Source: Octopus sinensis (lineage: Eukaryota). Taken from it: a DNA stretch of 20,023 nt. Positions 2,730 through 9,813 of this stretch are shown here, piece after piece. The notes beneath the pieces were generated by a model, which did no database searches, was not told the origin of the DNA, and saw only the letters and a program-made list of their open reading frames with translations. The translations under genes and the position numbers were made by a program. The stretch covers positions 1 through 20,023 of the forward strand of contig NW_021824076.1 in assembly GCF_006345805.1 (NCBI RefSeq), in the 5' to 3' direction. The first letter of the stretch is position 1, and the number at the start of each line of letters is the position of its first letter.

Positions 2730-2940
2730 GTGAACTGGCCGAGTGTTTAGTGCGCCGGGCTGAATGCTTAGTGACATTTCGCCTACCTGTACGTTCTGAG
2801 TTCAAATTCTATCGAGGTCGACTGTACCTTTTATTTTTTCGGCGTCGAAAATTAAAGTACCAGATATACACTGGGGTCAAGGTAATCGACTAGTCCCCTC
2901 CCACAAAATTGCAGGCCTTCTGCCTTTATTAGAAAGGATT
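2730..2940 (+). mobile_element. tRNA-derived Nin-domain SINE, near full length
   Basis: Aligns by eye with the 3465 and 13486 copies: B-box GTTCAAATT, GAGGTCGAC, Nin-like core TTTCGGCGTCGAAAATTAAAGTACCAG, CTGGGGTC..AATCGAC, tail CAAAATTGCAGGCCTT..AGAAAG, then an (ATT/ATC)n tail. Confidence 0.8.
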
Positions 2941-3464
2941 ATTATCATTATCATCGTCATCATCATTTTCTTTAATATCAAAATTATTAATATCAAATTC
3001 ATAATCAACATCATCTCCGACTTCATCATCATCCTCATCATCACCATTATAATCAGTATCATTCCTATTATCATTATCGAAGCAGTGATTATTACTTCTG
3101 CTTACTTGGTAGTTTCACAATAACAACTGTCACTCTGTCACGGTGGCTATAATTGCCTGTTTTGTGAGATCAGCGTTAAGATGAAATTATTAGTTACTTC
3201 GATAAGAAAGAATGTCCACAATCTAGAACAGACAGACGGATAGATAGAAAATTAGACAGAGACCGACAGAAATAGATAGACACACAGACAGACAGATAGA
3301 TAGAACATCGCTTGTATGCCAGTCCCAGAATGCTAAGTTACGGATCCTACCGTTATCTATTCTATATTCGAATATATGTTTAAAATCTTAGATATCATAT
3401 GTAAATTACCTTACCTATCGTGCACTGGCAAAAGTTTGGCAGCTACACACACACACGATCACGC

Positions 3465-3677
3465 AAGGCGGCGAGCTGGCAGAAACGTTAGCACGCCGGG
3501 CGAAATGCGTAGCCGTATTTCGTCTGTCGTTACGTTCTGAGTTCAAATTCCGCCGAGGTCGACTTTGCCTTTCATCCTTTCGGGGTTGATTAAATAAGTA
3601 CCAGTTACGCACTGGGGTCGATATAATCGACTTAATCCGTTTGTCTGTGCTTGTTTGTCCTTTCTGTGTTTAGCCCC
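3465..3677 (+). mobile_element. tRNA-derived Nin-domain SINE, well preserved, alternative 3' subfamily, truncated by the next element
   Basis: AAGGCGGCGAGCTGGCAGAAACGTTAG head (A-box-like), GTTCAAATTCC B box, Nin core GCCTTTCATCCTTTCGGGGTTGATTAAATAAGTACCAG and GTCGAT-ATA-ATCGAC hairpin. The 3' part (TTAATCCGTTTGTCTGT...) differs from the other copies. Confidence 0.85.
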
Positions 3678-3878
3678 ACGTGTGTACCGTTGGCGATTTT
3701 TTTTTTCCTCTGTCTTCCCTTCTCTGGATCTTTCCTTTTCCTATGTTTCCTGACGAAGAGCTCCGCTCGAAACGTTTAAACCCTCCTTCTTTCCTCTTTC
3801 CTGAGCGTCCAATAATACTATATGTGTTCCACGTCCTCGCGTTGATGTGTTTTTTGTGCTTTCTTGTTTGGATTAACT
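3676..3878 (+). mobile_element. ~200-bp hammerhead-bearing non-coding repeat (Penelope-like pLTR or retrozyme-like), copy A
   Basis: Reverse complement of 4327-4529 over its whole length with scattered differences. Contains a hammerhead core and ends GGATTAACT directly into (TA)n. Confidence 0.8.
3745..3781 (+). ncRNA. Minimal type-I hammerhead ribozyme motif
   Basis: GTTT(C)-CTGACGA-A-GAGC-TCC-GCTC-GAAA-CGT-T-(T)AAAC. Intact CUGANGA/GAAA core, 4-bp stem II, palindromic ACGT stem III, GUU triplet, and GTTT/AAAC stem I with a C.T mismatch next to the core. Confidence 0.7.
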
Positions 3879-3888
3879 ATATATATAT

Positions 3889-3926
<38 letters not shown>

Positions 3927-4094
3927 GCATATATAAATATGAGAGGTGTTGGTGTTTAGAAGACCCAAAGAGTATCGGGTAACGCTAAGTAAATGCCATA
4001 GACAGACCATGGTTAAACTCTTGGTTCGATAATGATACGAGTGAAGAGTCTGATGTGGGTCCTGCATATATGTATTAAACATACATATATGTAT

Positions 4095-4290
4095 TAGACA
4101 GAATGAGAGAACAAAGCCAAGGCTGGGAGTTTTCAGGACATTTATAATAAAATAGTCTTACAGCTGTTTCTGGTATGTTATGGATATCCCTTCATCAGAG
4201 ACGGTGTGAGAAAATATTTGAGTATGAATTATTGTGGAAAATGAGGAGTTGGGGAATCTAGACGAAAATAAGAGAAAGAAAATAGAAATA
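4095..4290 (-). mobile_element. Second family of hammerhead-bearing short repeat between TA-rich tracts
   Basis: Complex block bounded by TA-rich simple repeats that contains the ribozyme at 4155-4202. No similarity to the flanking arms outside the core. Ends are approximate. Confidence 0.55.
4155..4202 (-). ncRNA. Minimal type-I hammerhead ribozyme motif
   Basis: Minus strand reads GTCT-CTGATGA-AGGGATATCCATAACATACCA-GAAA-CAGCTG-TA-AGAC. Stem I GTCT/AGAC, intact core, palindromic ACAGCTGT stem III, GUA cleavage triplet. Stem II is imperfect. Confidence 0.75.
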
Positions 4291-4326
4291 AGATATATAT
4301 TTATATATATATAGGTATATATATAA

Positions 4327-4534
4327 AGTTAATCCAAACATGAAAGCACAAAAAAAAACACAACAACGTGAGGATGTGGAACAAATATAGTATTATTGGA
4401 CGCTCAGGAAGGAAGGGAAGAAGGAGGGTTTAACGTTTAGAGCGGAGCTCTTCGTCGGAAACATAAGAGAAGGAAAGATCCAGAGAAGGGAAGACAGAGG
4501 AAAAAGAATCGCCAACGGTACACACGCGGTCACA
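4327..4534 (-). mobile_element. ~200-bp hammerhead-bearing repeat, copy B (inverted relative to copy A)
   Basis: Reverse complement of 3676-3878, flanked on both sides by (TA)n. Confidence 0.8.
4428..4462 (-). ncRNA. Mutated hammerhead motif, probably inactive
   Basis: Minus strand reads GTTT-CCGACGA-A-GAGC-TCC-GCTC-TAAA-CGT-T-AAAC. Stems are perfect but the core carries U4>C and G12>U. Confidence 0.65.
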
Positions 4535-5414
4535 TATATATATATATATATATATACATGTAGTTATATGTGTAGATATATATGTATATATATATGTGTG
4601 TTTCTATATATATGTGTGTGTGTGTGCACATATATGTCTGTGTACAGGTGTATGTTTGTGCACACACACAAACACACACAAGCAAACATCTTATTACAAG
4701 CGTTCTATTATTTTGTGAAACAAAGAAAGACCGCTCAAGAAATTGTAGAAGTAGGAAACGAAAATGGTAACATCGGCAGGCAGAACGAAAGAGAACGAAA
4801 TATCATATTATCTGTTTGGGCATTTAAACTGGCCATTGTATGCATGAATATAAATGTGTTTTTCATTTTCATAAGCGGCTGTTTATGATTTATCGGTGCA
4901 GATGTTTTAAACGGCTGCTTCGGGTAGCCATTATGCTTATTGTCATGTTAGCATATTAGCGTGAAGAGAGTTGCTTTAATACATTAATATATCGTTGTAG
5001 TCATTCACACGTTTAATTAATTAAGCTAAAGATGCTTAATTGATGCTTGGAAGGGCAAGACACAACCATAAATATATTTAAATCGTTATTTTACAAGATG
5101 AAATAACAATTTCGCTGACAGATGGCGCTGTAATATTAATTTCTCAGTGAAAGATGAAACAAAACGATTTAATCATGGAACAATTTAATATCTCACCGAA
5201 GTGATACCGTTATATAATTAATTATTCAGGATGTGTGTGCGTGCTTTGCCAGTGTGTGTGTGTGTATGTGTGTGTGTATGTGTGTGTGTGTGTGTGTTTG
5301 TGTGTATCTGCGCATCGGTGTATGTGTCCATGCATATGTATAAAGAAAACGTTTACATGTGTGTGTATATATATATATTTATATACGATAAAGATACACA
5401 TGCATACATACATA

Positions 5415-7607: not shown

Positions 7608-7754
7608 ATCCATTCACTCTTAATACGTTCAAGCAGATTCAAAAGTGAATATCTGGTCACCGATGTTTTACCTCATCGGAGAGCACCTTCTCACTTTAAA
7701 CGATGGGTATTCTTAACACTCTGTTCACCATTGTAAAGAAAGTGAAAACCTCAT

Positions 7755-7793
7755 GGTGTTTCGACCTCGTTGAGTGTCTCATCAGTCAACGTT
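7755..7793 (-). ncRNA. Hammerhead core with intact stem II; stems I and III unresolved
   Basis: Minus strand reads CGTTGA-CTGATGA-GAC-ACTCAACGAG-GTC-GAAA-CACC. No convincing NUH plus stem I partner found nearby. Confidence 0.45.
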
Positions 7794-9522: not shown

Positions 9523-9693
9523 GGTTTCACATGTTGGCACAGGGCCAGCAATGTGATGGGATGGTACAAGTCGATCAACTGGTCGAAAAGCAAAGTCGAC
9601 CTGGGCGGAATTTGAACTCAGAACTTCAAGACTGACAATGTGCCGCTGAGCATTTATTCAGTCGTGCTAACGATTCTGCCAGCTCGCCGCCTT
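9523..9693 (-). mobile_element. Nin-type SINE with internal deletion of the core
   Basis: The reverse complement begins AAGGCGGCGAGCTGGCAGAATCGTTAGCACG, has GTTCTGAGTTCAAATTCCGCCCAGGTCGACTTTGC and ends TGCTGGCCCTGTGCCAACATGTGAAACC. Confidence 0.85.
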
Positions 9694-9813
9694 AATCGGA
9701 ACAAATAACGCAATGTGTTTTTTTACAGCTTTGAAGCAATTCTGCCATGATATTTCTGTTTTTATTTTAGAACAAAGGCCAACATTTTTGAAGTGAGGGC
9801 TATTAGTCTATAC

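What the first reader, a model, noticed from the sequence alone, without database searches (positions are those of the whole stretch)
3676..4534. Triple-hammerhead block: inverted ~200-bp ribozyme arms converging on a third, unrelated ribozyme
Seen: 3676-3878 and 4327-4529 are inverted copies, each with a hammerhead motif and each ending GGATTAACT into (TA)n. The ~450-bp spacer holds a different hammerhead repeat (4155-4202, minus strand). Known: Penelope-like elements carry minimal type-I hammerheads in their pseudo-LTRs and often leave inverted pLTR pairs, and non-autonomous retrozymes are short hammerhead repeats. Inference: this is either a non-coding, ribozyme-bounded composite mobile unit or repeated targeting of one (TA)n tract by ribozyme-bearing elements. 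Read-through transcription would also form a ~200-bp dsRNA stem.
Basis: partly seen in the sequence, partly recalled or inferred. Interest (0 to 1): 0.75.

Follow-up and report, generated by a model that had tools for sequence, protein, structure and literature searches.

The report
Three Penelope retroelement tails piled up
The block is three cut-off tails of two common jumping-gene families, each with a small hammerhead-ribozyme motif, that likely landed separately in the same TA-repeat patch, so it is an ordinary pile-up and not a new mobile unit.

Summary
The inverted arms and three hammerhead-like motifs are there, but a composite unit is not supported. The arms (family A) are 3' ends of a Penelope-like element with a Neptune-type GIY-YIG endonuclease. 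The spacer (family B) is the 3' end of an unrelated one with Hydra-type motifs. Both are abundant and end in (TA)n (26 of 29 and 24 of 29 copies; background 10%).

No second arm-spacer-arm block was found; one-sided A-B neighbours occur. Each arm has over 50 closer relatives among 112 copies than its partner. The arms point tail-to-tail, whereas B's own Penelope-type inversions sit at the 5' side (10 of 29 loci; none at the 3' side).

All three local ribozymes are damaged: the right arm has U4C and G12U, the left arm has two extra bases, and B has a broken stem II. One side result remains: exact A cores with U4C outnumber canonical ones 3,342 to 1,670 (CpG-decay control 160), and sampled copies mostly stop at about 215 bp. 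Cleavage and transcription were not tested.

The parts
3463..3675 (+). Abundant SINE-like repeat, cut short at its 3' side where the left arm begins; flanking context, not part of a unit
   Evidence: Many copies in the window and in fetched loci. Other copies continue past 3677 with a different tail (loose ends). The label SINE is recalled, not from a call.
3676..3878 (+). Left arm: 5'-truncated 3' end (pLTR) of family A, a Neptune-type Penelope-like element
   Evidence: 39 other copies at 93-96% among 40 scored of 1,757 candidates. Longer copies run through a CA-rich 3' region to a GIY-YIG/RT frame.
3745..3781 (+). Minimal type I hammerhead motif of the left arm: core CUGACGA 3750-3756, extra A after A9, 4-bp stem II, GAAA 3769-3772; two extra bases leave a mismatch at the base of stem I
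   Evidence: Sequence, motif scan, alignment. No Rfam hit. Activity untested.
3879..3934 (.). (TA)n tract joining the 3' ends of the left arm and of B
   Evidence: TRF period 2, 3878-3940
3935..4299 (-). Spacer: 5'-truncated 3' end (pLTR) of family B, a Hydra-type Penelope-like element
   Evidence: 4,060 candidates, best other full-length copies 75-85%. Copies extend about 1 kb further 5' to a GIY-YIG-like frame. 16 of 30 endonuclease loci have B downstream on the same strand (hand count).
4155..4202 (-). Minimal type I hammerhead of B: CUGAUGA core, GAAA, palindromic stem III, 4-bp stem I; stem II is damaged in this copy
   Evidence: The window copy does not fold stem II; natural copy L052 does and folds as a dimer with stems I-III. 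CUGAUGA in 25 of 29 family copies.
4300..4326 (.). Interrupted (TA)n between the right arm's 3' end and B's truncated 5' end
   Evidence: Sequence
4327..4535 (-). Right arm: second 5'-truncated 3' end of family A
   Evidence: Its 5' end falls in the family's truncation hot spot.
4428..4462 (-). Degenerate hammerhead motif of the right arm: U4C (lineage allele) plus G12U at 4439 (private)
4536..4643 (.). (TA)n/(TG)n tract at the right arm's 5' side
   Evidence: TRF

Best explanation
The block consists of three 5'-truncated 3' ends of two unrelated Penelope-like retrotransposon families (two of family A, one of family B), which likely inserted one at a time into neighbouring (TA)n tracts. Shown: both families are abundant, both end in (TA)n, both trace 5' to GIY-YIG endonuclease frames, and the three-part block was not found again. 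Inferred from what is known of Penelope-like elements: the endonuclease nicks (TA)n, reverse transcription starts at the RNA's 3' end and usually stops early, so only the pLTR with its hammerhead is laid down, flanked by TA tracts that are targets again. B is the more diverged family and was probably there first. The hammerheads are passengers from the parents, where they would cut tandem transcripts as dimers; at this locus all three are damaged and on a mixed-strand layout, so they are predicted not to cleave. If the locus is read through, the arms would form a roughly 200-bp double-stranded stem like any pair of nearby inverted repeats.
For: Abundance: at least 5,172 exact 34-nt A cores; 4,060 B candidates. 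TA link: 26 of 29 A and 24 of 29 B copies are followed by (TA)3 within 22 nt, background 885 of 8,778. Parents: 12 of 16 loci link an endonuclease frame through the 3' region to A; 16 of 30 link one to B. Homologs of A's parent: 11 of 14 carry PF00078 and 5 of 14 PF01541. Independence: the partner arm ranks 59th and 55th of 112 by identity, the only shared non-majority column lies in a T-run, and the arms' common ancestor holds 57 of 113 copies. No recurrence: 0 of 29 A loci hold B; 0 of 29 B loci hold two arms, 3 of 29 hold one A piece nearby; no other A-B-A among the 40 scored of 7,372 candidates; the exact tail-to-tail junction pattern matches only this window; a looser, shorter pattern gives 7 matches (control 3), 1 with B by BLAST and 1 B-like by eye, none with a second arm. 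Convergent A pairs with unrelated spacers occur in 2 of 29 A loci. Chance estimate: about 5 such blocks per genome (very wide range 0.003-128).
Against: The genome search scores only 40 candidates per DNA query and the patterns are exact, so a few diverged A-B-A copies could be missed (one search's pattern missed the known one-sided junction in L055). Arm-arm divergence alone (7%) does not exclude a joint insertion: it is about the sum of their distances to the family majority (2.5% and 4.0%), and the 200-bp tree has little resolution. Both arms share two of three lineage-linked alleles, so they are from the same broad sublineage. No empty or partly filled orthologous site was recovered, so the order of insertion is inferred. 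Target-site duplications cannot be read in TA tracts.
Confidence: 0.9

Rival explanations
1. The block is a non-coding composite mobile unit whose inverted arms bound it and which moves as one piece.
For: The arms are of like length and 90% identical; one-sided A-B junctions exist elsewhere (L038, L055, L254).
Against: No second full block. Junction points differ between one-sided cases. B is far more diverged from its relatives (75-85%) than A (93-96%). The arms are not near relatives. The hammerheads lie inside the arms on opposite strands and could not release one RNA.
Confidence: 0.03
2. The arms came from one event: a Penelope-type inversion during a single insertion, or a later local inverted duplication of one A copy.
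For: Penelope-like elements do make inverted partial copies (PMC8557442). Local duplications of A exist in this genome (L097 inverted with flanks, L099 and L100 tandem). Arm-arm distance is compatible with equal age.
Against: Penelope inversions are 5'-adjacent (10 of 29 B loci at the 5' side, 0 at the 3' side); these arms are tail-to-tail around another family. Homology stops at the element ends, with no duplicated flank, unlike L097. No private variant is shared outside a T-run.
Confidence: 0.05
3. The block is kept by the host as a double-stranded RNA or ribozyme element (for example an RNA-editing substrate).
For: Predicted long stem. Inverted repeat pairs are the usual ADAR substrates (PMC5625713 passages). 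Family A sequence is present in 4 of 4 runs guessed to be RNA.
Against: Cores are decayed at this locus. The upstream low-copy flank 3290-3389 had no cover in 4 of 4 runs of other organisms at 90% likeness (weak, contigs can have holes). No gene was found in the window (no Pfam hit for 3 window frames; no hit of Penelope or LINE proteins). One search is family-level, contig-only and the RNA label is a guess.
Confidence: 0.02

Closest known systems
Neptune-type (or Nematis-type) EN+ Penelope-like elements, parent of family A
   Same: [quoted passage not shown]
   Different: A roughly 1.5-kb CA-rich non-coding region lies between the frame and the hammerhead. The commonest core is U4C. Sampled copies stop in a narrow 5' window near 215 bp. 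Neptune versus Nematis was not separated by an RT tree.
Hydra clade of Penelope-like elements, parent of family B
   Same: CxCX5C linker (21 of 30), no cysteine pair between GIY and YIG (0 of 22), CxxC and CxH near the C-terminus (28 and 26 of 30), canonical hammerhead core, (TA)n targets (PMC8557442 section 11).
   Different: All copies seen are broken; RWK and DKT motifs and the RT tree were not tested.
Minimal PLE hammerheads (Cervera and De la Pena 2014, PMC4209133)
   Same: Type I, 4-bp stem I, extra base after A9, very short palindromic stem III, mostly single motifs from truncated elements; the paper also notes pairs 100-700 bp apart on opposite strands.
   Different: A has a 4-bp stem II rather than 7-8 bp; U4C is not mentioned in the two of four parts I read.
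Animal non-LTR retrozymes (PMC7229834; bioRxiv 10.64898/2026.07.22.740005)
   Same: Short, non-coding, type I hammerhead, derived from or related to PLE pLTRs.
   Different: Retrozymes are head-to-tail tandem repeats with a hammerhead per unit. A and B here are dispersed truncated ends that run on into coding parents.

Membership tests
EN+ Penelope-like element (family A) | RT and GIY-YIG endonuclease 5' of the pLTR on the same strand | tested here: met
   12 of 16 loci link the endonuclease frame to A; RT motifs in L217, L218, L226; 11 of 14 homologs carry PF00078. Own Pfam hit is weak: GIY-YIG E 0.004, below cut-off, 1 of 4 peptides.
Neptune/Nematis clade (family A) | CX2-5CxxC linker and cysteine pair between GIY and YIG | tested here: met
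   Seen in translations of L225, L226, L221, L218 and in P0001-P0003; definition.
Neptune/Nematis clade (family A) | Placement in an RT phylogeny | not tested
   No reference RT set was in hand; frames are broken.
Hydra clade (family B) | CxCX5C linker, no CCHH cysteines, C-terminal CxxC and CxH | tested here: met
   21 of 30, 0 of 22, 28 of 30 and 26 of 30; definition. L061's peptide has no Pfam GIY-YIG hit itself but matches L057's peptide (39.8%, E 8e-27), which hits GIY-YIG at E 1.8e-4, just under cut-off.
Hydra clade (family B) | RWK and DKT motifs in RT; RT phylogeny | not tested
   Only RT-like fragments were seen upstream, with no Pfam hit.
EN+ Penelope-like element (A and B) | Variable 5' truncation, fixed 3' end, (TA)n targets | tested here: met
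Penelope inverted-pLTR structure | Inverted truncated copy adjacent to the 5' end | tested here: not met
   The arms converge by their 3' ends. B shows the true form in 10 of 29 loci; none of 29 A loci shows it.
Type I hammerhead ribozyme | Core C3 U4 G5 A6 N7 G8 A9, G12 A13 A14 A15, U16 H17 with stems paired next to the core | tested here: inconclusive
   Family B: CUGAUGA 25 of 29, with GAAAC 19 of 29. Family A: canonical in 1,670 versus U4C in 3,342 exact cores. Window copies: right arm fails (G12U), left arm has a stem I mismatch, B has a damaged stem II. Criteria from PMC3088659. No Rfam hit.
Type I hammerhead ribozyme | Self-cleavage | not testable with these tools
   Only contigs were available for RNA-like runs; they cannot show ends.
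Non-LTR retrozyme | Head-to-tail tandem units each with a complete hammerhead | tested here: not met
   No such array in the block. The direct A pairs examined are segmental duplications or separate insertions.
Composite or TIR-bounded mobile unit | Recurs as one piece in new flanks | tested here: not met
   limited to scored candidates and exact patterns.

The most novel reading that the evidence does not exclude
A Neptune-type sublineage with a U4C hammerhead core out-amplified its canonical sister two to one, mostly as 215-bp pLTR-only copies that start in a narrow window, because a weakened ribozyme leaves short pLTR transcripts uncut and so lets them retropose like a SINE. This would be a natural test of whether Penelope elements need their ribozyme.
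Probability: 0.2. Interest if true: 0.55.

Novelty: new member of a known kind. Interest (0 to 1): 0.22.

Why it matters
The block itself matters little: it is what dense, TA-targeted Penelope debris produces by chance. The families behind it have some value. The role of hammerheads in endonuclease-bearing Penelope elements is called unclear in PMC8557442, which raises the idea that they may be dispensable. A genome holding thousands of copies each of a canonical-core and a U4C-core sublineage of one family offers a direct comparison. Such short, abundant, strand-balanced repeats are also a likely source of double-stranded RNA.

Tried and rejected
Rfam scans found no hammerhead family. CpG decay as the source of the canonical core was rejected: the mirror change gives 160 matches against 1,670. 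The idea that close A pairs flank a shared internal sequence was rejected: six pairs picked from the pattern lists were tandem or inverted duplications with their flanks or separate insertions. The idea that U4C copies are a fixed-end SINE with no parent was weakened: 41 of the first 100 of 210 matches that keep the upstream motif are U4C (hand count), 20 fetched ones extend 2 to 1,252 bp, and L247 reaches the end of the endonuclease. The strong long-copy versus short-copy split of cores (31:1 versus 13:46) is not relied on, because long copies were picked with a canonical-lineage query. One search's query was mostly TA repeat and only its last 60 bases were useful. The 5'-end counts were wrong (bad reference anchor) and were redone. 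The search for an orthologous empty site failed: repeat matches swamped the output and no piece spanned the stretch. cannot show cleavage or strand. The GIY-YIG remnant 4.4 kb upstream in L171 belongs to another family and was not used. An initiator-like TCATTC and a 5-bp hairpin sit at A's truncation hot spot; neither was tested. An assembly-made inversion is unlikely because the arms differ by 7%, but the left arm's extra bases lie in or beside homopolymers and could be sequencing errors; this was not checked. Earlier findings of the scan and the Lunse 2016 paper on Penelope hammerhead dimers were not available, so overlap with them is open.

Full report
Setting. The window is the whole of contig C547 of G000, a 2.72-Gb genome in 13,516 contigs. 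It is rich in microsatellites (56 TRF rows). The repeat content recalls an octopus; that is from memory and from no call.

Observation. The arms at 3676-3877 and 4328-4529 align at 90.3% over 206 columns and both end GGATTAACT into (TA)n. A motif scan finds CUGANGA...GAAA at 3750 (+) and 4198 (-) but not in the right arm. Rfam has no hammerhead hit in the block (0 of 6 hits at E up to 10) or the window. Alignment to 29 relatives explains this. The right arm reads CCGACGA and has G12U, which 0 of 69 other short copies share. The left arm has an extra base before the core (0 of 69) and one after GAAACG (2 of 69), leaving a C-U mismatch at the base of stem I. The spacer copy has two changes in stem II and does not fold it, whereas natural copy L052 folds stem II and, as a dimer, stems I-III. 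By the criteria in PMC3088659 (passages) the two arms would be rejected; B keeps its core but is weakened.

Family A. The arm has 1,757 candidates; the 39 best others are 93-96% identical. Exact 34-nt cores number 3,342 (U4C), 1,670 (canonical) and 160 (CpG-decay control), each balanced between strands. The canonical form is ten times the decay control, so two source lineages exist; linked sites agree (49:4 versus 5:24 among 82 called of 131 copies). Following rare longer copies 5' led through about 1.5 kb of CA-rich sequence (8 of 8 chosen loci share it) to a reading frame: 14 of 16 loci have the endonuclease there and 12 of these also have A downstream. Translations show RT motifs, a CX4CxxC linker and two cysteines between GIY and YIG, the Neptune/Nematis pattern of PMC8557442 (passages). 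Of 14 homologs, 11 carry PF00078 and 5 PF01541; the element's own Pfam hit is weak (E 0.004).

Family B. The spacer has 4,060 candidates; the 29 best other loci are 75-85% identical and many extend 5'. Three reach a GIY-YIG-like frame. Conversely, 16 of 30 loci found with that peptide (its own locus included) have B downstream on the same strand within 1.5 kb (hand count). The peptide has the Hydra-clade marks of PMC8557442 section 11: CxCX5C in 21 of 30, no cysteine pair between GIY and YIG in 22 of 22 callable, CxxC in 28 and CxH in 26 of 30. A and B are unrelated in DNA and endonuclease.

Is it a unit? None of 29 A loci has B within 1.5 kb. Of 29 B loci, 3 have an A piece within about 130 bp, on one side only. 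The whole block as query returned no other locus with all three parts among 40 scored of 7,372 candidates. The exact tail-to-tail junction with a 35-65 base gap occurs only here. A looser pattern with an 8-38 base gap gave 7 matches against 3 for the control; 5 have A, one has B by BLAST and one looks B-like, and none has a second arm. These searches are not exhaustive. Among 113 distinct A copies the partner arm ranks 59th and 55th of 112, and the one shared non-majority column is in a T-run; both arms do carry two of three U4C-lineage alleles, and a 200-bp tree resolves little. Geometry also differs from the Penelope inversion, which is 5'-adjacent: B shows that form in 10 of 29 loci and never at the 3' side, while the arms converge by their 3' ends, as unrelated A pairs do in 2 of 29 loci. 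With each one-sided junction at 1 in 29 and 4,060 B candidates, about 5 such blocks are expected by chance (range 0.003-128).

Mechanism. Shown: fixed 3' ends followed by (TA)n in 26 of 29 A and 24 of 29 B copies against 10% background, variable 5' ends, coding parents. Inferred from known Penelope biology (PMC8557442; PMC4209133 parts 1-2 of 4; review PMC6765202 passages): endonuclease nicking at (TA)n, target-primed reverse transcription from the 3' end, early termination. B is older and probably came first. The left arm's 5' end abuts a SINE-like repeat cut short at 3675. In the parents the minimal hammerheads are thought to work as dimers in tandem transcripts, with low activity in vitro. 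Here one motif is on the plus strand and two unlike ones are on the minus strand, and in a plus-strand read-through the long stem is predicted to absorb the left motif (193 of 203 bases paired). Cleavage at this locus is therefore unlikely; it was not tested. RNA evidence is family-level only.

What is left. In 45 of 47 arm-like copies the 5' end falls within a 20-base window (the lower edge is set by my query), and only 210 exact matches keep the motif just upstream. U4C copies can be long (up to 1,252 bp of extension, one reaching the endonuclease), so this is a sublineage with a steep truncation hot spot rather than a separate SINE. U4C is reported to lower activity in vitro yet allow viroid infectivity. 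Searches for U4C with hammerhead (1 paper), for solo pLTR non-autonomous elements (0) and for cephalopod hammerhead retrotransposons (1 listed) showed no description of this case, but the library is partial, the Lunse 2016 paper was not available and no supplements were read; those of PMC8557442 and PMC4209133 may list these families. Other papers seen as passages: PMC6962438, PMC13282606 (Penelope-like elements are a recognised class there, 'ribozyme' 0 times), PMC7229834, PMC5625713, bioRxiv 10.64898/2026.07.22.740005 (part 1 of 5 and passages).

Verdict. Real sequence, ordinary cause: new members of known Penelope clades in a chance arrangement. Interest 0.22. The U4C side finding has about a 0.2 chance of being the more interesting story.

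Noticed in passing
L255:584-1518 (G000:C23, about 23,273,495-23,274,430): A 358-bp tandem repeat, 2.6 copies, 98% matches, with a canonical-core type I hammerhead motif at three places 359 bp apart; a family A copy ends in (TA)n right at its start. It looks like a young non-LTR retrozyme array.
   Followed up: partly
window 10385-10440, minus strand: Another CUGAUGA...GAAAC motif with the extra A after A9, in a repeat (10308-10468) that recurs in 2 fetched loci; possibly a third Penelope-like end.
   Followed up: partly
window 7740-7790, minus strand: CUGAUGA...GAAAC hammerhead-like motif in a stretch with no match among fetched loci; may be chance.
   Followed up: no
window 15048-15131, plus strand: tRNA-Leu(AAG)-like sequence; ARAGORN call and Rfam 36.7 bits above the gathering score of 29. 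Gene or tRNA-derived repeat not resolved.
   Followed up: no
window about 13780-14640, minus strand: Broken reading frames that by eye resemble the C-terminal part of a non-LTR retrotransposon protein, next to (TAA)n tracts; recalled resemblance only, no Pfam hit.
   Followed up: partly
window 2747-2891, 3463-3675, 9585-9711, 13483-13804, 19424-19507: Several copies of one abundant SINE-like repeat family in both orientations.
   Followed up: no
L065:954-4130 (G000:C2, about 156,783,950-156,787,130): Two long stop-free frames (534 and 524 aa) of a LINE-like element inserted inside a family B element between its endonuclease and its pLTR.
   Followed up: no
L058:1323-1501: A 46-bp 3' fragment of A fused directly to an inverted piece of B with no TA between them; could be a template switch between the families or an insertion.
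   Followed up: no
G000:C18:3,674,283-3,851,918: Four near-identical diverged A copies at roughly 45-90 kb spacing, suggesting a large tandem segmental array.
   Followed up: no
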